Part shown: piece by piece, positions 1,631-61,430 of the stretch
Layout of the letters: each line of letters starts with the position of its first letter
Position numbering within the stretch: position 1 is the first letter of the stretch
Assembly: GCA_048550195.1 (NCBI GenBank)
Contig: JBLYYR010000111.1
Coordinates: 10,224-74,223 of the forward strand
Direction of reading: 5' to 3'
Length of the DNA stretch: 64,000 nt
Origin: Arenicellales bacterium
Lineage (GTDB): Bacteria > Pseudomonadota > Gammaproteobacteria > BMS3Bbin11
Position numbers and translations under genes: made by a program
Notes under the pieces: model-generated
The model's database searches: none
Told to the model about the DNA's origin: nothing
What the model saw: the letters and a program-made list of their open reading frames with translations, nothing else

Positions 1631-1707
1631 TGGTGCCCCGGAGACGATTCGAACGTCCGACCTGCCGCTTAGGAGGCGGCTGCTCTATCCAGCTGAGCTA
1701 CCGGGGC
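1631..1707 (-). tRNA. tRNA-Arg (anticodon CCU)
   Basis: The reverse complement is GCCCCGGTAGCTCAGCTGGATAGAGCAGCCGCCTCCTAAGCGGCAGGTCGGACGTTCGAATCGTCTCCGGGGCACCA. It folds as a 77-nt cloverleaf with a 7-bp acceptor stem, a GCTC/GAGC D-stem, the anticodon loop CTCCTAA (anticodon CCT), a TTCGAAT T-loop and a 3' CCA. Confidence 0.85.
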
Positions 1708-19229: not shown

Positions 19230-19450
19230 TGCCGGGGTTTAGTCTCAGGCTGGTTTCCGGGCTTGTGAGCATTGAAGTCGTCTGCCTTCCCATGCGATTA
19301 GAACGATTAAATACATTCATACTGCACAGTGGCTGCTTAGAAGACTTCCCTCACTTACCGTTGCGGGGGCAGCGCCGGAATTGAACCGGCTTCCCATTTC
19401 ATCCTACTGGATGGTATCCAGTAGAAATCCTGAGGCTGGCGACTTTAAGT
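19230..19450 (-). promoter_or_regulatory. Cobalamin (B12) riboswitch in the btuB leader
   Basis: The reverse complement of 19321-19400 reads GGGAAGCCGGTTCAATTCCGGCGCTGCCCCCGCAACGGTAAG...GCCACTG. These are the conserved cobalamin-riboswitch core and the B12 box. GGGAAGGC lies downstream. Confidence 0.85.
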
Positions 19451-21754: not shown

Positions 21755-22762
21755 ATGAGTAACAGGCGTATTGTATTGATTGTTATTTCCGTTGTGGTGG
21801 TAGTGGCGGTGGCGACGGCGGGTTTTCTGCGTTGGCAGCTTAAGCAGGGTCGGCGTACCCCACCATCTGCAGGTATGTCTGTCATGATGGAGAAAGTGGC
21901 CCAGGCAGCAGAATTGCCAAGTGGGTTTATTGTCTGGAGCTCAAACCGTTTTGGTAATCACGACATACTTAAAATGGACTTGCCGGAAAGAAAAATTTCA
22001 CGTTTGACCACACATCCCCATACTGAGTATTTTCCACGAATCTCACCAGATGGAAGATATGTTGTATTTTCCCGCTCACAAAAACCCTGGGTATCGCAGC
22101 GTAATCAGGAACTATGGGACGTAATACTACTCGATCTTCAGACAGGGGAGGAACGGGAACTGGCCAAAAATGCCAATACCCCCACCTGGTCTATCGATGG
22201 AAAAAAGGTATATTTTCAGCGCAATGTCATGAACCTGGCTGAAATTAATGTCGAAACAGGAGAGGAGCGCATTCTTTTCACCAGCGGCAATGGCGACGTC
22301 AAAAAGAGCGCAGGGTTGCAAACACCGGCATACAACACGCATAGCAATAAAATGGCCGTAACGTTGCGCTATGGCCAGCACATGACGGCCATTGTCGATA
22401 TGTACGGGAATCTCAGGAGAATCTCAGACGGCTGTCAGCTTACCTGGAGCAGGGATGCGAGCTTTCTTTACTATGTGGATTATGGTGGCAAGATGAAAAA
22501 TGCCTTTTATCTTTATGACCCTGCGACTGGCAAGTCCACACCGTGGCTGGATATGCCTGGTGAATTCAGTCATGAGTATTTTCCAAAACTGTCAAATGAT
22601 GAAAAATATCTAGTTTTCGCCGCCAGCAAAGGCGGTCATGAGCATGATAGTGCTGATTATGAGATATTCCTCTGGCAGGTGGGCGCACCAGCAGAATCGG
22701 CGGTTCGCCTGACTTTTCATACGGGTAATGATAACTGGCCGGATGTGTTTTTGATGGATTAG
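21755..22762 (+). CDS. Membrane-anchored TolB-like beta-propeller (PD40 repeat) protein
   Basis: The protein has an N-terminal TM helix. Repeated ...SPDGRYVVFS.../...SIDGKKVYFQ.../...SRDASFLYYV.../...SNDEKYLVFAA... blades follow. The gene starts 16 bp after the upstream gene. Confidence 0.6.
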   Translation: MSNRRIVLIVISVVVVVAVATAGFLRWQLKQGRRTPPSAGMSVMMEKVAQAAELPSGFIVWSSNRFGNHDILKMDLPERKISRLTTHPHTEYFPRISPDGRYVVFSRSQKPWVSQRNQELWDVILLDLQTGEERELAKNANTPTWSIDGKKVYFQRNVMNLAEINVETGEERILFTSGNGDVKKSAGLQTPAYNTHSNKMAVTLRYGQHMTAIVDMYGNLRRISDGCQLTWSRDASFLYYVDYGGKMKNAFYLYDPATGKSTPWLDMPGEFSHEYFPKLSNDEKYLVFAASKGGHEHDSADYEIFLWQVGAPAESAVRLTFHTGNDNWPDVFLMD

Positions 22763-22967
22763 TCTCTGGTTTCTTTTATTATTTTGCTCGAATTGAACTG
22801 GGCTTGTCGCAGTTCATGCGCGAGGTGTTCAGTACCTTGATCAGGGTTGCGACAAAGAGTTTAATCGACGAGAATTATTACAGCATGATACAACATATCA
22901 ATCATTTGACCGCACTGAGGAACCTCTGATCAATTCATGAACTCGTATCTTACGTTTAAAATATCCA

Positions 22968-23073
22968 GTCTTTTTCGTTGAAAATCTTCGCAATAGCTAG
23001 CTATTACGTGCAATTTCCGCCTCAAAACTGAAAATTTTAAATCGCAATCTACTTCGTCCAGAATTAATTAGAG
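22968..23073. repeat. Copy A of a roughly 110-bp dispersed intergenic repeat with a palindromic core
   Basis: The sequence ...ttgaaaatcttcgcaatagctagctattacg...ccagaattaattagag is shared with 58403-58510. It contains a perfect 14-bp palindrome, aatagctagctatt, at 22992-23005. Confidence 0.5.
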
Positions 23074-23098
23074 ATTCCCTAAGGTATTACTCCATAAA

Positions 23099-23983
23099 AT
23101 GAAGTGGCGAAAAAGAAAACAAAGCACAAACGTTGATGACAGAAGAAGTAGCACTGGCGGTGTACGTAGAGCTTTGCCTTCCGTTGGAACAATTCTTTTT
23201 TTCTGGCCGATAATCAAAAAACTGCTGCATTCAAAGCTTGGCCTCGCCATATTGGGTATTGGTGCAGTGGTTTATTTTGGTAATTTTATTGATTTCTCTT
23301 CTTTGATGGGGGGTGGCAGTTCCACACCTGTTAATGAAGAACTGGATAATGAGCAGGCTGCATTTATTAAAACAGTACATGCCGACACTGAAGCAATCTG
23401 GTCAAAGATCTTTGCACAGGCAGAAGCGCGCTATCCCTCTCCGACTCTGGTGTTGTATCGCGGGTCGACAACAAGTGGCTGTGGACCGGCCAGTTCTCGC
23501 ATGGGACCGTTCTATTGCCCTGAAGATAGAAAAATCTATGTTGATCTGGGCTTCTTCGAGGATTTGAAACGTCAGCATGGGGCAGGGGGAGACTTTGCAC
23601 AAGCCTATGTGCTCGCACACGAAATTGGCCATCATGTGCAATACCTGGAAGGTACACTGGATAAGGTGCAAAGAGCAAAACAACAGGTATGGGGAGAGGC
23701 CAAAAAGAATCAACTGCAAGTGCGTGTTGAGCTGCAGGCTGATTGCTATGCAGGTGTCTGGGCGCATCACGCTCATGCACAGTTTGATATCCTGGAAGAA
23801 GGCGACCTCGAAGAAGCAATGGTTGCTGCGGCTTCCATCGGTGATGACAGGATGCAAAAACAGTCACAGGGTTTCGCTATACCCCACACCTTTACTCATG
23901 GCAGTTCCAAACAACGTGTAGAGTGGTTTGCCAGAGGTGTTAAGAATGGTGATTTACAGGATTGTAATACCTTTGGAAGGTAA
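23099..23983 (+). CDS. YpfJ-family putative neutral zinc metallopeptidase
   Basis: The N-terminus reads KWRKRKQSTNVDDRRSSTGG...TM, followed by HEIGHHVQ, which is a HExxH zinc site. This N-terminus is typical of YpfJ proteins. Confidence 0.8.
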   Translation: MKWRKRKQSTNVDDRRSSTGGVRRALPSVGTILFFWPIIKKLLHSKLGLAILGIGAVVYFGNFIDFSSLMGGGSSTPVNEELDNEQAAFIKTVHADTEAIWSKIFAQAEARYPSPTLVLYRGSTTSGCGPASSRMGPFYCPEDRKIYVDLGFFEDLKRQHGAGGDFAQAYVLAHEIGHHVQYLEGTLDKVQRAKQQVWGEAKKNQLQVRVELQADCYAGVWAHHAHAQFDILEEGDLEEAMVAAASIGDDRMQKQSQGFAIPHTFTHGSSKQRVEWFARGVKNGDLQDCNTFGR

Positions 23984-44542: not shown

Positions 44543-45931
44543 TTAGATAACCTTCGAAAAACGCTTTTCCTGATTGTCTTTCAGGTGTGCGTCAAAGGTC
44601 ATGCATATGTTTCGTATGAGTAATCTTCCAGCAGGCAGAACGGTGATGCTGCTGTCATTAATTTGCAGCAGTTCGTCATCCTGCATAACTTCGAGTCGAG
44701 ATAACTCATTGCTAAAATAGTCTGCAAAATTAATATTGTACTTTTTCCCGAACTTTTCCATCTCCAGTCTGAAGTTACAGATAAGCTGGCTTATCAGATC
44801 CCGGCGTAACAGGTCATCGTCTGTGAGGATGAGACCTCGCATGAGCGGTAATTTATTTTCATCAATCATCTGATAGTAGGATTCTTCATCACGCACATTC
44901 TGGCTGTAGATATTATTAACCTGTGAAATGGCCGTGACGCCCATTGCCACCATGTCGCAATCTGCATGTGTGGAGTAGCCCTGGAAGTTTCTGTATAAGC
45001 GCCCCTTGTCCTGGGCAATGACCAGTTCATCATCCGGTTTGGCAAAGTGGTCCATACCGACGTAGACATAGCCTTTTTCGGTCAGGTACTGGATGACTGA
45101 CTGCAGTATCTCCAGCTTTTCAGCAGCGGAGGGTAAGTCATCTTCATTAATGCGTCGCTGCGGCATAAACAGGGTAGGCAGGTGGGCATAATTGAACACG
45201 GACAGCCTGTCAGGATCAACCTGCATGATTTTATCCAGTGTGGCAAGAAAGCTTTCAACCGTTTGAAAGGGCAGACCATAAATCAAGTCTACACTGACAG
45301 ACTTAAATTTGGCTTCGCGGGCGGCATTAATTGCTGCAAAGGTAATTTCTTCACTTTGTATGCGATTGACGGCCTTCTGCACTTTGGCATCAAAATCCTG
45401 TACACCGAGACTGAGACGATTAAAGCCGATGTCGCGCAGGAAATGCACCCCGTCAGCAGTGATTTCTCTGGGATCTATTTCTATTGAGTACTCACCTTTA
45501 TCATCAGCCATCAGAGAGAAATGCTGACCCGTTTTTTCCATTAAGCGTCGCATCTGATCGTGACTTAGAAAGGTAGGTGTGCCACCACCCCAGTGTAATT
45601 GATCGACAGGACGGGATCTGTCGTACAGCGCCCCCTGCATTTCTATTTCGCGGTAAAGATGATCCAGATAGGGTGTGGCCCGGTCACGTCGTTTGGTCAC
45701 AATCTTGTTGCAGGCACAGTAAAAGCAGACGGTGTCACAAAAGGGGATGTGGAAATAAAGGGAAAGTGGCTTTGGCTTTGCCTCTTTGTTGCTTCGGTCA
45801 GCTGCAGCCCGGTAATCATCGGCTGAGAAACTGTCATTAAAAAGGTTGGCCGTGGGGTAGGAGGTATAACGAGGCCCTGCCTTATCGTAGCGCTTGATTA
45901 AGTCTGGTTTGAATTCGATCTTCTGTTCCAT
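44543..45931 (-). CDS. hemN: Oxygen-independent coproporphyrinogen III oxidase (radical SAM)
   Basis: The radical-SAM CxxxCxxC motif is HIPFCDTVCFYCAC. The HemN C-terminal domain is present. Confidence 0.85.
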   Translation of the reverse strand: MEQKIEFKPDLIKRYDKAGPRYTSYPTANLFNDSFSADDYRAAADRSNKEAKPKPLSLYFHIPFCDTVCFYCACNKIVTKRRDRATPYLDHLYREIEMQGALYDRSRPVDQLHWGGGTPTFLSHDQMRRLMEKTGQHFSLMADDKGEYSIEIDPREITADGVHFLRDIGFNRLSLGVQDFDAKVQKAVNRIQSEEITFAAINAAREAKFKSVSVDLIYGLPFQTVESFLATLDKIMQVDPDRLSVFNYAHLPTLFMPQRRINEDDLPSAAEKLEILQSVIQYLTEKGYVYVGMDHFAKPDDELVIAQDKGRLYRNFQGYSTHADCDMVAMGVTAISQVNNIYSQNVRDEESYYQMIDENKLPLMRGLILTDDDLLRRDLISQLICNFRLEMEKFGKKYNINFADYFSNELSRLEVMQDDELLQINDSSITVLPAGRLLIRNICMTFDAHLKDNQEKRFSKVI

Positions 45932-45942
45932 TATTACTACCC

Positions 45943-46192
45943 CGAATGTAATCTAGCCGACATTCAGCTAGTCTGTGCTTGTTCATGGCGAGGAGCCTAA
46001 CGCCGCTGTAGCTATTCTACAGCAAGTTTCGACAACGATGTTCATGTGCAAGCACAGACTAGCCCGGAGGGCGCCCCAATAATGTTCAGTTTTTTGTTGC
46101 GACTCTTGCTAAGGACTCGGTCATTCGTGGCGGGCCGCGCCTCAATCTGAATCATTATTGGGGCCCTGAATGTAGGCTAGATTACATTCAGG
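45943..46192. repeat. 250-bp block of nested inverted repeats (a MITE-like or structured-RNA element) in the divergent hemN promoter region
   Basis: The outer inverted repeat pairs 45943-45967 (cgaatgtaatctagccgacattcag) with 46165-46192. One inner inverted repeat pairs ctagtctgtgcttg (45968-45981) with caagcacagactag (46049-46062). A second inner one pairs gccccaataatg (46073-46084) with cattattggggc (46153-46164). An extra hairpin, gctgtag-ctatt-ctacagc, lies at 46005-46023. Confidence 0.55.
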
Positions 46193-46333
46193 GTAGTTAC
46201 TCCCTGTCAGGGTTTTGTCCCAGAATGTCATTTTCTGGTTGATGATCAGGCTAATAAGAAGGATTATATCACTCAGATATATTTAGCAATAACAGATAAA
46301 CTCGCCACTTCGGCAACTTTTGAGGAAAGCAAT

Positions 46334-47050
46334 ATGTTGTTCATGTTTGTAAGGGTAATTATATTTACTGTTTTAGCCATGTCGTTGACCAGGGCCCTTG
46401 CTTTTGAGACTGAAGTGACTGTCCTGATGTTCAATGAGCAGGACTCACAAAATGAGCCGGGCTATATCTCACGGATATTACTTAGCAAGGACTTCTTACG
46501 TCTGGATGATGGGGAAAACCATGGGGATTTCGCATTATTTGACAGAAAAACCGGGACTATATACAGCGTTAGTCATGAGGATCAGCGTACCCTGGTTATT
46601 CCTCTGCAGCCTGTATTAGCGATTCCGCCAAGACCCTTAAGGCATGATATTGAAGAGCTTGATGCGGGTGGCGTCCCTGACGTGGATGGTAAGAAGGTGT
46701 CGAGGTACTATATGTTTACAAACGGTACCCGCTGTATGGAGGTTTATGCAGTACCCGGTTTTCATGATGATATAACCGATACACTTGCAGCTTTTGCAAT
46801 AACACTGGCGGGTCAGCATGCAAAATCGGTCGATGTCATACCGGACCAGGCTGGCGCTGATTGTGATCTGGCTAATAATATTTTCGAACCAGACCGCTAT
46901 TTGAGCAAAGGATTCCCCGTCAGGCAGAAGGATTTTACGGGACGAACCCGTTCTCTGGTCAATATTAAAGAAAAGGTCATCATTGATTCAACTGTGTTTG
47001 AGCTGCCGGAAGGCTACGAAAGGTTTATGCCTGGCGTTTTTTCAAAGTAG
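46334..47050 (+). CDS. Hypothetical secreted protein or lipoprotein
   Basis: The protein has a signal peptide (MLFMFVRVIIFTVLAMSLTRALA). I recognised no catalytic motif. Its 3' end overlaps the convergent lpxH by 26 bp. Confidence 0.45.
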   Translation: MLFMFVRVIIFTVLAMSLTRALAFETEVTVLMFNEQDSQNEPGYISRILLSKDFLRLDDGENHGDFALFDRKTGTIYSVSHEDQRTLVIPLQPVLAIPPRPLRHDIEELDAGGVPDVDGKKVSRYYMFTNGTRCMEVYAVPGFHDDITDTLAAFAITLAGQHAKSVDVIPDQAGADCDLANNIFEPDRYLSKGFPVRQKDFTGRTRSLVNIKEKVIIDSTVFELPEGYERFMPGVFSK

Positions 47051-57406: not shown

Positions 57407-58336
57407 TTGGAACTGATTCTTGGCCTGCACAATCTGCAACCGGCAGAAACTCCCTGTGTCGCTACAATCGGGAATTTCGATGGTGTTCACCTTGGGCATC
57501 AGGCTGTCATTGGGCAGTTGGCGGAAAAGTCCGCAGCAATGAACCTGCCGACTACGCTGATAACTTTTGAACCCACGCCGGCCGAATTTTTTGCCGGTGA
57601 AAATGCCCCTGCCAGGCTATCTACTTTCCGAGAGAAATATGTAACGCTTAAACGCTTCACCATTGACCGGATTCTGGTATTACCTTTCAATCAACGACTG
57701 GCATCTATGGCGGCAGATGACTTTATCCAGCAGATATTGATTAGCGGACTTGATATTCGCTATTTGGTTGTCGGCGATGATTTCCGCTTTGGTAAGGACA
57801 GGGCGGGTGACTTCCATCTGCTGCGACAGGCAGGAGAAGAAAATAATTTTACGGTGGTGTCTATGCCTAGCTTCCGTGTCGATGGTGAGAGGGTTAGCAG
57901 TTCAGGTATCAGACAGGCACTGGCCGATGGCAACTTTGATCGTGCAGAGCGCATGCTGGGCCGACACTACCATATGACGGGTAAGGTCGCACACGGTGAT
58001 AAACGTGGTCGTCAATGGGGCTTTCCTACTGCAAATATAAATATGAAGCGCAAGGTCATACCCTTGCGTGGAATCTTTGCGGTTGAGGTGTTCGGTCTTG
58101 ATCGTGAGCCGATGTTCGGTGTTGCCAATCTCGGTACACGTCCGACTGTTTGCGGTTTGCGCACTCTGCTGGAAGTCCATTTATTCGATTTTGATAAGCA
58201 GATTTACGGCAGGCGAATCAATGTGATATTTCGCCACAAGATTCGGGAGGAAATACGTTTCGAGTCATTTGATGCCCTGAAGGAACAGATTGCGCTGGAT
58301 GTTATCAGTGCCAGAGAGTATTTTTCGGCGATTTGA
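57407..58336 (+). CDS. ribF: Bifunctional riboflavin kinase / FMN adenylyltransferase
   Basis: The FAD-synthetase N-terminus reads ATIGNFDGVHLGHQ. The flavokinase C-terminus reads GFPTANI. Confidence 0.85.
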   Translation: MELILGLHNLQPAETPCVATIGNFDGVHLGHQAVIGQLAEKSAAMNLPTTLITFEPTPAEFFAGENAPARLSTFREKYVTLKRFTIDRILVLPFNQRLASMAADDFIQQILISGLDIRYLVVGDDFRFGKDRAGDFHLLRQAGEENNFTVVSMPSFRVDGERVSSSGIRQALADGNFDRAERMLGRHYHMTGKVAHGDKRGRQWGFPTANINMKRKVIPLRGIFAVEVFGLDREPMFGVANLGTRPTVCGLRTLLEVHLFDFDKQIYGRRINVIFRHKIREEIRFESFDALKEQIALDVISAREYFSAI

Positions 58337-58402
58337 TCGCCTGATTAAGTCTGCAGGGCACTCTATTATTTATTACATGAATATTCATCTTCCATCCCAA
58401 AT

Positions 58403-58510
58403 CGTCCCTTTCTGCGTTAAGAATCTTCGCAATAGCCAGCTGTTGCGTACGATCCTTGCCTTGATATGAACGATTTGGAATACAATCTGATCTATCCAGA
58501 ATTAATAGAG
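58403..58510. repeat. Copy B of the roughly 110-bp dispersed intergenic repeat
   Basis: The sequence ...gcgttaagaatcttcgcaatagccagctgttgcg...ccagaattaatagag shares about 70% identity with 22968-23073. Confidence 0.5.
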
Positions 58511-58592
58511 GTGCCCTGCACTGTAAAAAAGCTTTTGGCCATGTTAATTTCTGCTATTGCCGTATTTTTTCTTAACTTAAAAGACCCGCTGT

Positions 58593-61430
58593 ATGACTGA
58601 TTACAAGACGACCATCAACCTGCCTAATACCGGCTTTCCAATGAAAGCCAATCTGGCCAATCGTGAACCGGAATTCCTGAAAGGATGGGGGCAAAAACTC
58701 TATCAGCGTATTCGTGACGAACGCGCTGATGCACCTAAATATATATTGCATGATGGACCGCCATACGCCAATGGTGATATTCATACCGGTCATGCTGTTA
58801 ATAAGATCCTGAAAGATATCATCATTAAATCCCGTACACTGGATGGTTATGATGCGCCTTTTATCCCGGGCTGGGATTGCCATGGCCTGCCAATTGAACT
58901 GCAGGTAGAGAAAAAATCTGGCAAGGCCGGGGTTAAAATCGATGCCAATAGCTTTCGCCGGAAATGCCGCGAATACGCGCAGAAACAGGTGGATCGGCAG
59001 CGCGAGGATTTTAAACGCCTTGGGGTACTGGCTGACTGGGACAATCCTTATCTGACAATGGCGCCGGAAAATGAAGCTGAAATTGTTCGTTCGCTGGGCC
59101 GTATAATTGAACAGGGTCATCTTTTTCAGGGTGCGATGCCTGTGCACTGGTGCACTGATTGCAGGTCTGCACTGGCTGAAGCTGAAGTAGAATATCAGGA
59201 CAAGGAATCACTGGCTGTAGATGTTGCCTTTCATGCAGTCGATGGAGCATCTGTTTGTAAAGTCTTTTCTCATGACTCCAGCGATGAAAGAGTTTCCTTT
59301 GTTATCTGGACTACTACACCCTGGACACTGCCTGCCAATCAGGCCGTTGCACTAAATCCGGATCTGGACTATGTACTGGTCAGGTTTAATGATAAGCATA
59401 AAGGGCTCTATGTTTTTGCAACGGACCTGCTTGATTCGGTTTTAAGCCGCTATGGGATCGAAGATTATGTGCAGCTTGCAAACGTAAGTGGTCAGGCACT
59501 GGAAGGGATAGAGCTTGAACATCCGTTTTATGACCGCCTGGTACCGGTTATCCTTGGCGAGCATGTGACAACTGAAGCGGGTACCGGCGCTGTGCATACC
59601 GCGCCAGGTCACGGCCAGGAAGATTTCATCGCTGGCAGAAATTATAATCTGGAAGTTGATAATCCTGTTGCGGCTAATGGCGTCTTTGTTGAGGGAACGC
59701 CGTTGTTTGCCGGCGAACATGTGTTGAAGGCGAATGCACATGTTGTTGAAGTGTTGCAAGAGCAGAAAGCTCTGTTATTCTCAGAACCCATCACGCATAG
59801 CTACCCACATTGCTGGCGCCATAAAACACCTATCATTTTCCGTGCTACACCCCAGTGGTTCATCAGCATGGATCAGGCAGGGCTGCGTGACCGTACCCTG
59901 GAAGAAATTAATAAAGTTCGCTGGCTACCCGAATGGGGAAAGGCTCGAATCAAAGGTATGATCGAGAATCGGCCCAACTGGTGTATCTCCCGGCAACGGC
60001 ACTGGGGTGCACCGATTGCCCTGTTTGTTCATATTCAAACGGGTGAGTTGCACCCGCGTACTAATGAAATTTTGCAGCAGGTAGCTGATCGCATTGAGCA
60101 GGGTGGTGTTGAGGCCTGGTTTGAAATGGATACAGCTGAGCTGCTCGGTGATGAGGCAGATGATTATCAGAAAATCACCGACATCCTGGATGTCTGGTTT
60201 GACTCAGGTGTATCACATACCTTTGTACTGGATAAAAGAGCCGGTCACTCAGCACCGGCTGATCTCTATCTGGAAGGCTCTGACCAGCATCGGGGCTGGT
60301 TCCAGTCATCGATGTTGAGTTCCGTGGCAATGAAGGGTAGTGCACCTTATAAGACGGCATTGACGCATGGCTTTGTGGTTGATGCGGACGGCAATAAGAT
60401 GTCCAAATCTAAAGGCAACGTAGTGGTCCCGCAGACAATCATCAACTCCATGGGGGCCGATATTATCCGCCTGTGGGTAGCGGCAACAGATTACCGTAAT
60501 GAGATGACGATCTCGGATGAAATCATCAAACGCACTGCTGATGCCTACCGCCGCATACGCAACACTAACCGTTTTCTACTCGGCAATCTGGATGGGTTTG
60601 ATCCAGCATCTGATGCGGTAGACATAGCGGACCTGATAGAAATTGATGCATGGGCGATAGCCCGCTGTCAGGAAGTCAACCAATTGGTTATAAAGTCCTA
60701 TCAAGACTTTTCCTTTCATCATGTCTATCAGGCTGTACTGCAGTTCTGTGTCAACGATATGGGGGGCTTTTATCTGGATATCCTGAAAGACCGGTTGTAT
60801 ACCACGCCAGCAGGAAGTCAGGCACGGCGTTCCGCGCAGACTGCTATGTATCACATACTGGAGTCACTGGTGCGTTGGATGGCTCCTGTGCTGAGTTTTA
60901 CTGCGGAGGAAATCTGGTCGTATATGCCGGGGAATAGAACGGACAGCATATACCTTCAGCAGTGGCATAAATTGCCAGTAATTGAGAATAATACTACCTT
61001 ATTAAAACGCTGGCAGGTCGTCACAGCCCTTAGAGACGGAGTGTCACAGTCTCTGGAGGCTCTACGCAAGGAGGGTGTCATCGGCTCACCGCTGGATGCG
61101 GAAGTTAGCATCTATACTGAGGGCCGGACACTGGAATTACTGCAGTCCTTTGCGGATGAATGCCGTTTCATATTTATTACCTCCTATGTCCATGTTTATC
61201 CCATTGAAGATGACCATAGATACGGTAAGGAACTGGAAAATTGGGCGCAGTCACTGGATGGCTGGGATGATGATATTGTCGCCATAGATGTCAGTGCGAC
61301 AGAAAAAGAAAAATGCATACGTTGCTGGCACCACCGTGAAGATGTCGGTAGCCATTCGCAGCACCCCGAAATTTGTGGTCGCTGTGTTGAAAATATAGAG
61401 GGCGAGGGTGAGGTCAGGCGTTATGTCTAA
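58593..61430 (+). CDS. ileS: Isoleucine--tRNA ligase
   Basis: The HIGH motif (HTGHAV), the KMSKS motif and a C-terminal zinc finger (CIRCW...CGRC) are present. Confidence 0.9.
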   Translation: MTDYKTTINLPNTGFPMKANLANREPEFLKGWGQKLYQRIRDERADAPKYILHDGPPYANGDIHTGHAVNKILKDIIIKSRTLDGYDAPFIPGWDCHGLPIELQVEKKSGKAGVKIDANSFRRKCREYAQKQVDRQREDFKRLGVLADWDNPYLTMAPENEAEIVRSLGRIIEQGHLFQGAMPVHWCTDCRSALAEAEVEYQDKESLAVDVAFHAVDGASVCKVFSHDSSDERVSFVIWTTTPWTLPANQAVALNPDLDYVLVRFNDKHKGLYVFATDLLDSVLSRYGIEDYVQLANVSGQALEGIELEHPFYDRLVPVILGEHVTTEAGTGAVHTAPGHGQEDFIAGRNYNLEVDNPVAANGVFVEGTPLFAGEHVLKANAHVVEVLQEQKALLFSEPITHSYPHCWRHKTPIIFRATPQWFISMDQAGLRDRTLEEINKVRWLPEWGKARIKGMIENRPNWCISRQRHWGAPIALFVHIQTGELHPRTNEILQQVADRIEQGGVEAWFEMDTAELLGDEADDYQKITDILDVWFDSGVSHTFVLDKRAGHSAPADLYLEGSDQHRGWFQSSMLSSVAMKGSAPYKTALTHGFVVDADGNKMSKSKGNVVVPQTIINSMGADIIRLWVAATDYRNEMTISDEIIKRTADAYRRIRNTNRFLLGNLDGFDPASDAVDIADLIEIDAWAIARCQEVNQLVIKSYQDFSFHHVYQAVLQFCVNDMGGFYLDILKDRLYTTPAGSQARRSAQTAMYHILESLVRWMAPVLSFTAEEIWSYMPGNRTDSIYLQQWHKLPVIENNTTLLKRWQVVTALRDGVSQSLEALRKEGVIGSPLDAEVSIYTEGRTLELLQSFADECRFIFITSYVHVYPIEDDHRYGKELENWAQSLDGWDDDIVAIDVSATEKEKCIRCWHHREDVGSHSQHPEICGRCVENIEGEGEVRRYV

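What the first reader, a model, noticed from the sequence alone, without database searches (positions are those of the whole stretch)
22968..23073. Dispersed ~110-bp intergenic repeat with a 14-bp perfect palindrome, present twice in the window
The same element occurs at 22968-23073 and 58403-58510 with about 70% identity. Each copy ends 25-80 bp before the start of a plus-strand gene, the YpfJ peptidase in one case and ileS in the other. The shared blocks are aatcttcgcaatagc[t/c]agct[a/g]tt[a/g]cg and ccagaattaat(t)agag. Copy A carries the perfect palindrome aatagctagctatt, and copy B a degenerate version, caatagccagctgttg. The element could be a REP/ERIC-like repeat, a promoter-associated regulator-binding cassette, or a small-RNA gene family.
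Basis: seen in the sequence. Interest (0 to 1): 0.5.

Follow-up and report, generated by a model that had tools for sequence, protein, structure and literature searches.

The report
Small mobile hairpin repeat (IS5-type MITE)
The two look-alike intergenic stretches are copies of a 160-base non-coding jumping element (a MITE moved by IS5-type transposases) found in many marine sulfur- and sediment-dwelling Gammaproteobacteria; this is an ordinary kind of element, but its interior is unusually well conserved.

Summary
Each copy is a 160-161-nt imperfect palindrome: copy A at 22919-23078 and copy B at 58356-58516. Both have terminal inverted repeats and 4-bp flanking duplications (TGCA/TGCA for B, CTGA/CTAA for A). 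The central 20-mer occurs in more than 104 loci from about 49 species-level genomes, including tubeworm endosymbionts, Sedimenticolaceae, Woeseiaceae, Thiotrichales and Arenicellales. Of 98 full copies, 45 have perfect 4-bp direct flanks (TTAA > TTAG; shuffled mean 9). Relatives of the window organism have empty sites at both window positions. The termini GGAACCTCTGATCAA and the YTAR-like duplication match 1.2-kb insertion sequences that encode an IS5-family transposase (L140, L130). I conclude it is a MITE family with two subfamilies, not an operator cassette or an sRNA gene, and there is no Rfam match. Three features go beyond a plain selfish repeat. The arms covary (27 of 37 pairs). Orientation follows flanking transcription 43:14. 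The ribF-ileS copy differs at only 1-3 of about 120 interior bases between genomes whose four-fold sites differ by 24-45%. Whether that reflects host-level selection is unresolved.

The parts
22919..23078 (+). MITE copy A (subfamily 'type 1', 160 nt), between a 335-aa ORF (21755-22762) and ypfJ (23099-23983)
   Evidence: nhmmer hit with E=1.8e-49. Boundaries were set from hmmalign and TIR/TSD analysis. It folds as a long hairpin of -33.3 kcal/mol, z=-2.25. The orthologous site is empty in L234 and L236.
22919..22936 (+). Left terminal inverted repeat of copy A, GGAACCTCTGATCAATTC
   Evidence: Its first 15 nt are identical to the ends of the IS5-family elements L130 and L140. It pairs with 23061-23078.
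23061..23078 (+). Right terminal inverted repeat of copy A, GAATTAATTAGAGATTCC. It is slightly decayed relative to the consensus GATCAGAGGTTCC.
22915..22918 (.). Left copy of the target-site duplication of copy A (CTGA, one mismatch to the right copy)
   Evidence: The empty sites in L234 and L236 carry a single CTAAG.
23079..23082 (.). Right copy of the target-site duplication of copy A (CTAA)
22989..23008 (+).
   Evidence: These are near-invariant columns 80-97 of alignment A2.
58356..58516 (+). MITE copy B (subfamily 'type 2', 161 nt), between ribF (57407-58336) and ileS (58593-61430)
   Evidence: nhmmer hit with E=4.3e-40. It folds as a hairpin of -55.2 kcal/mol, z=-5.76. The same insertion is present in L055 and L230 and absent in L226-L229 and L231-L233.
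58352..58355 (.). Left copy of the target-site duplication of copy B (TGCA)
   Evidence: Empty sites have a single AGCA or AGTA followed by CTGTGAAAAA.
58517..58520 (.). Right copy of the target-site duplication of copy B (TGCA)
58356..58378 (+). Decayed left terminal repeat of copy B, GGGCACTCTATTATTTATTACAT. The orthologous copies in L055 and L230 have GGGCACCTCTATTAATCCAT.
58499..58516 (+). Right terminal inverted repeat of copy B, GAATTAATAGAGGTGCCC
58428..58447 (+). Hairpin apex of copy B, CGCAATAGCCAGCTGTTGCG

Best explanation
[quoted passage not shown] The family has at least two subfamilies, with termini GGAACCTCTGATC... (copy A) and GGGCACCTCTAT... (copy B). The element encodes nothing. 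A DDE transposase of the IS5 family, supplied in trans, recognises the terminal inverted repeats. It inserts the element into short A/T-rich targets (TTAA > TTAG > CTAA/CTAG/TTGA and others) and duplicates 4 bp. In this Arenicellales genome, one copy landed 20 nt upstream of ypfJ and one landed in the ribF-ileS spacer. Shown here: the termini, the target duplications, the empty sites, the dispersal across genomes, the covarying arms, and autonomous IS5 elements with the same ends. Inferred: mobilisation in trans by such a transposase. Also inferred: resident copies are co-transcribed with their neighbours as long RNA hairpins. That may explain the orientation bias and the slow evolution of the interior.
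For: Size and ends: conservation across 96 copies begins and ends sharply at TTAA|GGAACC...GGTTCC|TTAA. Target duplication: 45 of 98 copies have identical 4-mers on both sides, against a shuffled mean of 9.2 and a maximum of 18. Among non-palindromic 4-mers, 20 are direct and 1 is inverted. The flank consensus is Y-T-A-R. Empty sites: the ribF-ileS spacer lacks the element in seven relatives (L226-L229, L231-L233) and carries it in L055 and L230. The ypfJ site is empty in L234 and L236, and in L235 it is occupied by a different subfamily. Parent type: L140 is a 1,196-bp element with ends GGAACCTCTGATCAA/..AATCAGAGGTTCC and CTAA duplications. It encodes an intact 324-aa transposase that scores 339.6 bits against NF033581 IS5 family (cut-off 140) and matches Pfam DUF772+DDE_Tnp_1. 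L130 (1,197 bp, CTAG duplications) and L115 are further examples. Non-coding: conservation shows no 3-base periodicity. About half of the copies have TAG at the apex in the only long frame. Hairpin: 95.2% of cells are paired, against 79.7% when shuffled and 27-41% when slid, and 27 of 37 pairs show double changes.
Against: No IS5-type transposase gene was found in the window or in the 104 genome loci. A partner in the same genomes is therefore not shown, although only about 8 kb per locus was sampled. The IS elements found match the type-1 terminus only, and no autonomous partner for the type-2 terminus was sought. The interior is more conserved than the termini at the ribF-ileS locus. The element's orientation is also biased relative to genes, 43:14. 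A purely selfish cut-and-paste element predicts neither. No transposition or transcription data exist.
Confidence: 0.9

Rival explanations
1. It is a domesticated MITE. The family spreads as a transposon, but its interior is a functional cis-acting module, such as a long RNA hairpin affecting processing, stability or read-through of the surrounding operon, or a protein-binding DNA site. Some resident copies, including the ribF-ileS copy, are then kept by host-level purifying selection.
For: The ribF-ileS copy differs at 1-3 of about 120 interior positions among the window, L230 and L055. Four-fold degenerate sites of ribF and ileS differ by 24-45%. The probability of at most 1 difference is 4e-30 at the neutral rate and 2e-7 at the mean coding rate. 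The window's left terminus has decayed, which would immobilise the copy. The atypical TGCA target argues for a single ancestral insertion. Orientation follows flanking genes 43:14, p=1.5e-4. The pair L094/L067 shows the same trend, with the element at 84-96% identity and flanks at 56-86%. Non-palindromic interior blocks are conserved across about 49 species.
Against: G-U and A-C mismatches are equally frequent in the predicted stems, so no single RNA strand appears to be the selected one. No promoter-like or terminator-like site lies on the + strand. Independent insertions at one site do occur. Four-fold distances do not resolve L055 as sister to the window (0.45 against 0.43 to the empty L226). 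Allele transfer or repeated insertion from near-identical master copies therefore remains possible. Only three orthologous copies were compared.
Confidence: 0.3
2. It is a family of small-RNA genes or cis-regulatory leader RNAs that is conserved vertically and is not mobile.
For: The fold is stable and covarying. Both window copies lie just upstream of + strand genes.
Against: There are target-site duplications and empty sites. The neighbouring genes are unrelated and occur in all orientation classes. There is no Rfam match even at E<=10. No promoter or terminator is present. The termini are identical to those of IS5 elements.
Confidence: 0.03
3. It is an operator cassette: the apex palindrome is bound by a local transcription factor that controls ypfJ and ileS.
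For: The apex holds a perfect 14-bp palindrome in copy A and a near-palindrome in copy B, and its sequence is very strongly conserved.
Against: The same apex lies next to dozens of unrelated genes, between convergent genes 13 times and antisense to both neighbours 14 times. Close relatives express ypfJ and ileS without it. The palindrome is simply the turn of a 160-nt inverted repeat.
Confidence: 0.03
4. It is a REP/REPIN-type element mobilised by a RAYT (Y1/HUH) transposase.
For: It is palindromic, intergenic and abundant, like REPINs.
Against: REPINs make no target duplication. Here 4-bp duplications are the rule. The termini match DDE-type IS5 elements. At 160 nt, the element is larger than typical REP doublets.
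Confidence: 0.02

Closest known systems
MITEs that share termini with IS5-family insertion sequences, for example the Neisseria meningitidis ATR element with ISNme1, and the Porphyromonas gingivalis MITEs with ISPg1/3/4/9 (PMC4596501)
   Same: All are short non-coding elements whose terminal inverted repeats match those of IS5-family elements. They have short target duplications, many copies per genome, and no remnant of a transposase gene.
   Different: The sequence is unrelated (those termini are GAGACC...). Those families are confined to one species or genus with 10-20 copies. This one was found in about 49 species-level genomes across several gammaproteobacterial orders, and its interior is strongly conserved.
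ERIC / IRU (enterobacterial repetitive intergenic consensus, about 127 bp)
   Same: Both are imperfect palindromes of 120-160 bp located in transcribed intergenic regions. Both are spread over many genera and conserved in sequence far beyond what is usual for a MITE (the ERIC properties are from my own knowledge).
   Different: There is no sequence similarity: no match in 5,426 E. coli genomes. For this family, a matching autonomous IS type and a clear 4-bp duplication are identified.
Correia / NEMIS elements of Neisseria
   Same: Both are 100-160-bp MITEs with long inverted repeats. Both are often co-transcribed with neighbouring genes and occur as subfamilies and internal-deletion variants (from my own knowledge).
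   Different: Correia elements duplicate TA and carry an IHF site and outward promoters. Here the duplication is 4 bp. No IHF consensus was seen when I read the sequence by eye, and the scan found no promoter-like or terminator-like site on the + strand of either copy.
IS5 family (IS5 group) insertion sequences
   Same: The termini begin with GG, and the 15 terminal bases are identical to those of L130 and L140. The target duplication is 4 bp and resembles YTAR.
   Different: There is no transposase gene, the element is 160 bp rather than 1.2 kb, and the whole element is a foldback hairpin.

Membership tests
[quoted passage not shown] | Small size (roughly 50-600 bp) with no coding capacity | tested here: met
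   The modal length is 158-161 nt. Conservation shows no codon periodicity. The only long frame is closed by TAG at the apex in about half of the copies.
[quoted passage not shown] | Terminal inverted repeats | tested here: met
   The ends are GGAACCTCTGATCxAxTC...GAxTxGATCAGAGGTTCC. Helix 1 (14 pairs) is 94% paired, with 13 covarying pairs.
[quoted passage not shown] | Target-site duplication of fixed length | tested here: met
   45 of 98 copies have perfect 4-bp direct repeats, against a shuffled mean of 9.2 and a maximum of 18. Among non-palindromic 4-mers, 20 are direct and 1 is inverted.
[quoted passage not shown] | Many dispersed copies per genome | tested here: met
   There are 2 copies in this 64-kb window. 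At least 10 loci come from MAG CSMAG_2624, at least 11 from binchicken_co85_55 and at least 9 from MAG246.
[quoted passage not shown] | Presence/absence polymorphism at orthologous sites | tested here: met
   ribF-ileS spacer: 3 filled and 7 empty. ypfJ upstream site: 2 filled, by different subfamilies, and 2 empty.
[quoted passage not shown] | Termini shared with an autonomous element that encodes a transposase | tested here: met
   L140 (intact IS5-family transposase), L130 and L115 carry the same 13-15 terminal bases and YTAR duplications. They come from metagenome contigs, not from the genomes that hold the MITE.
[quoted passage not shown] | A cognate transposase present in the same genome | tested here: inconclusive
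   tblastn with the L140 transposase finds nothing in the window or in loci L001-L104. That is only 64 kb plus about 8 kb per locus, and whole genomes could not be scanned.
IS5-family-derived element | Termini starting with GG and a 4-bp duplication of a YTAR-like target | tested here: met
   Flank composition, positions 1-4: T62/C22, T71, A71, A62/G30. The termini are GGAACC / GGGCAC.
ERIC / IRU | Sequence homology to the enterobacterial ERIC consensus | tested here: not met
   blastn with word size 11 of a consensus-like copy against 5,426 complete E. coli genomes found no match.
REP / REPIN | No target-site duplication; mobilised by a RAYT | tested here: not met
   4-bp duplications are present. 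RAYT association was not examined.
Any curated RNA family (Rfam 15) | Match to a covariance model | tested here: not met
   No hit at the element at gathering thresholds over the whole window. No hit at E<=10 over 22850-23150.

The most novel reading that the evidence does not exclude
The interior of this MITE family is not junk between two transposase-binding ends. It is a conserved functional module that the element carries around. At some loci it has been domesticated. In the ribF-ileS spacer, the terminal repeat has decayed while about 120 interior bases have stayed almost invariant across lineages whose synonymous sites differ by up to 45%. This would make the family an ERIC-like mobile cis-regulatory or RNA-structural element of marine sulfur-cycling Gammaproteobacteria.
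Probability: 0.3. Interest if true: 0.6.

Novelty: new member of a known kind. Interest (0 to 1): 0.35.

Why it matters
The practical value is for annotation. This 160-bp element is abundant in uncultured marine Gammaproteobacteria, including tubeworm endosymbionts. It probably breaks MAG assemblies, since many copies sit at contig ends. It can also be mistaken for an sRNA or a regulatory site. The biological value is that the family offers an ERIC-like case with a traceable origin: an identified IS5-type parent, clean empty sites, covarying arms, a transcription-linked orientation bias, and at least one copy that evolves far more slowly than the essential genes beside it. That makes the old question of whether such repeats are selfish or useful testable in this group.

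Tried and rejected
Rfam searches at gathering and permissive thresholds found nothing at the element.

The sigma-70 promoter and intrinsic-terminator scans found nothing on the + strand at either copy.

A search for solo termini or an autonomous partner in loci L001-L104 found only a 36-bp TIR-TIR mini derivative in L071.

Viral contigs gave one hit to the terminus. Plasmids and E. coli genomes gave no match. Phages or known plasmids are therefore not evident vectors.

I looked for empty sites among the pattern-selected loci. L045 against the window was too diverged to be useful. L007 against L073 showed a remnant rather than a clean empty site. Clean empty sites came only from RibF- and YpfJ-guided look-ups.

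I considered a coding reading, a 20-44-aa frame starting at the conserved CATGAA, and rejected it. There is no periodicity and TAG is frequent at the apex.

I checked the asymmetry of TTAG against CTAA duplications as a sign of oriented insertion. It is 9:1 among perfect duplications but only 13:8 and 12:7 over all flanks, so I made no claim.

Full-text searches for the sequence strings and for MITEs in sulfur-oxidising symbionts found no description of this family. The Thiomargarita MITEs are different, with 10-bp direct repeats and TATAG ends.

Full report
1. THE OBSERVATION

Both stretches are there and are colinear. The repeat finder pairs 22971-23014 with 58410-58453 (80%) and 23045-23068 with 58483-58506 (79%), at the same offset. 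A MAFFT alignment of the wider regions is 74% identical. The shared 26-mer occurs exactly twice in the window, against none in 100 shuffles. The 14-bp perfect palindrome sits at 22992-23005.

The similarity continues about 50 nt to the left in both copies.

2. WHAT THE ELEMENT LOOKS LIKE

I scanned one genome per species for the central 20-mer AATCTTCGCAATAGCYAGCT. They come from about 49 different species-level genomes. These include endosymbionts of Escarpia and Lamellibrachia tubeworms. They also include MAGs labelled Sedimenticolaceae, Woeseiaceae, Thiotrichales/Thiotrichaceae, Chromatiales, Ectothiorhodospiraceae, Competibacteraceae, Arenicellales, Xanthomonadales and Methylomarinum.

Laying the matches side by side showed a unit of about 159 nt. 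Conservation starts and stops sharply at TTAA|GGAACCTCTGATC...GATCAGAGGTTCC|TTAA.

- An nhmmer profile built from 96 copies finds 121 elements in 0.79 Mb. It finds only the two known copies in the window.
- The window copies are 22919-23078 and 58356-58516.
- They belong to two subfamilies. Type 1 has termini GGAACCTCTGATC (copy A). Type 2 has termini GGGCACCTCTAT (copy B).
- Both subfamilies co-occur in several genomes.
- Median pairwise identity among 93 copies is 72%.

- Across 92 distinct copies, 95.2% of cells in the consensus structure are paired. The figure is 79.7% after shuffling (0 of 500 shuffles reach the observed value) and 27-41% when partners are slid.
- 27 of 37 pairs show changes on both sides.

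3. IT IS MOBILE

- Of 98 full copies, 45 are flanked by identical 4-mers. Shuffled pairings give a mean of 9.2 and a maximum of 18.
- Where the 4-mer is not its own reverse complement, 20 pairs are direct and 1 is inverted. The flanks are therefore duplicated target and not an extension of the inverted repeat.
- The target consensus is Y-T-A-R, with TTAA the most frequent, then TTAG.
- Copy B has a perfect TGCA/TGCA duplication. Copy A has CTGA/CTAA.

Empty sites settle the matter. The window's RibF is identical to a protein of an Arenicellales MAG.

ribF-ileS spacer, in contigs found through RibF homologues:
- The spacer carries the element at the same position in L230 (RibF 95%) and in L055 (MAG246).
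- The spacer lacks it in L226, L227, L228, L229, L231, L232 and L233. There a single AGCA or AGTA precedes the conserved CTGTGAAAAA block.

ypfJ upstream site:
- L234 and L236 have the uninterrupted sequence ...CACACTAAGGTTTTACTCC...
- The window has a type-1 element there.
- L235 has a type-2 element within 1 nt of the same site, in the same orientation. It is a 'long' variant with a 49-nt extra segment, also seen in L071.

These are two independent hits on one hot spot.

4. WHAT MOVES IT

I scanned metagenomes for the type-1 terminus while excluding the MITE interior. This recovered 1.2-kb elements with the same ends.

- L130 is 1,197 bp with CTAG duplications and a frameshifted transposase.
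- L140 is 1,196 bp with CTAA duplications and an intact 324-aa protein.
- The L140 protein scores 339.6 bits against NCBIfam NF033581 'IS5 family transposase' (cut-off 140). It has Pfam DUF772 plus DDE_Tnp_1.
- L115 is a third end with the same transposase type.

The same scan showed many other short elements of 37-264 bp that share these termini and YTAR flanks. This terminus therefore heads a large group of IS5-type elements and their MITEs.

MITEs that share termini with IS5-family elements are documented in Porphyromonas and Neisseria (PMC4596501).

No such transposase lies in the window or in the 104 genome loci. Trans-mobilisation in these genomes is inferred, not shown.

5. WHAT IT IS NOT

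- There is no Rfam hit.
- No promoter-like or terminator-like site lies on the + strand.
- There is no codon periodicity, and TAG is frequent at the apex in the only long frame.
- Copies lie between co-directional, divergent and convergent genes in roughly genomic proportions (57, 17 and 13).
- There is no match in plasmids or in E. coli genomes, so it is not ERIC. Viral contigs gave one match to the terminus.
- A regulator-binding cassette or a vertically inherited sRNA gene cannot account for the duplications and the empty sites.

6. WHAT REMAINS ODD

First, orientation. Among co-directional gene pairs, the strand that reads AATCTTCGCAATAGC is the sense strand 43 times and the antisense strand 14 times (p=1.5e-4). 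The two termini are equivalent, so the bias must come from the conserved asymmetry of the interior or from selection after insertion. G-U and A-C mismatches in the stems are about equally common, so there is no simple sign of one selected RNA strand.

Second, rate. The window, L230 and L055 share the ribF-ileS insertion. The target TGCA is atypical, and the three copies share copy-specific variants. They are each other's nearest relatives among all copies, at 10-11 differences against 18 or more for any other copy, and most of those differences lie in the window's decayed left terminus.

- Four-fold degenerate sites of ribF and ileS differ by 24% (window-L230) and 45% (window-L055 and L055-L230).
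- The interior of about 120 nt differs at 3, 1 and 2 positions in those same three comparisons.
- The left terminal repeat of the window copy has decayed, with 8 differences including a 3-nt indel in 25 nt.
- A second orthologous pair, L094/L067, shows the same trend more weakly.

This is what domestication would look like. The alternatives are not excluded. The MITE-bearing spacer may have been transferred by recombination. Other copies may have converted it. Near-identical master copies may have inserted repeatedly. Independent insertion at one site does happen, and the coding distances do not resolve L055 as sister to the window lineage (0.45 against 0.43 to the empty L226).

7. VERDICT

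The finding is a real repeat, and the two stretches are copies of one MITE family. The family is of IS5 type, is widespread in marine sediment and symbiont Gammaproteobacteria, and to my knowledge is undescribed. It is not in Rfam, and I found no paper that describes it in the searched library.

The kind of element is well known, so the overall interest is modest. The breadth of distribution, the covarying foldback, the orientation bias and the near-frozen interior at ribF-ileS are worth a targeted follow-up.

Noticed in passing
window 45937-46196: A second, unrelated palindromic intergenic element of about 260 bp. Its 22-32-nt terminal inverted repeats are CTACCCCGAATGTAATCTAGCC / GGCTAGATTACATTCAGGGTAG, and it is flanked by TTA on both sides. 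It lies between ORFs 44543-45931(-) and 46334-47050(+). It is probably another MITE family.
   Followed up: partly
window 58521-58566: A native ribF-ileS spacer block, CTGTrAAAAA..TTGGCCATGTTAATTTCyGCTATTGCC, is conserved in all relatives whether or not they carry the MITE. It is likely an ileS promoter or leader element. The only promoter-like match here is on the minus strand (TTAACA-16-TACAGT, 58547-58520).
   Followed up: partly
L235:1774-1983 and L071:2083-2317: A 'long' type-2 variant (about 208 nt) carries the same 49-nt extra segment just 3' of the apex in two different genomes. The segment is therefore part of a propagating subfamily and not a one-off nested insertion. Other length variants are L085/L076 (+~70 nt), L063, and L027/L036/L074 (+~22 nt in the left arm).
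   Followed up: partly
L071:1296-1335; L154 around 2128 (minus strand): Mini derivatives of 36-37 bp consist of only the two terminal repeats and are still flanked by TTAA- or ATAA-type repeats.
   Followed up: no
L118, L220, L222, L161, L221, L146, L202, L223 (metagenome loci): Many other MITE families of 100-264 bp have unrelated interiors but the same termini, GGAACCTCTGATCAAGT, and YTAR flanks. This IS5 terminus seeds a large and diverse MITE population in environmental bacteria.
   Followed up: no
L007:5759-5803 versus L073:1863-2046: Where L073 has a full element, L007 has only a 13-nt terminus-like remnant (GGAGTCTCTAATT followed by TTAA). This may be an excision or deletion footprint.
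   Followed up: partly
L033 (labelled Rhodothermales) and L089 (labelled Alphaproteobacteria): Full copies occur in two MAGs that are not labelled as Gammaproteobacteria. This could be mis-binning, mislabelling or real cross-phylum transfer.
   Followed up: no
window 19231-19448 (-) and 1634-1707 (-): A cobalamin riboswitch (110 bits) and a tRNA gene. Both are unrelated to the finding.
   Followed up: no
window 22024-22068 and 22573-22617: A 45-nt direct repeat (73%) lies inside the 335-aa ORF upstream of copy A. It probably reflects internal repeats of the encoded protein.
   Followed up: no
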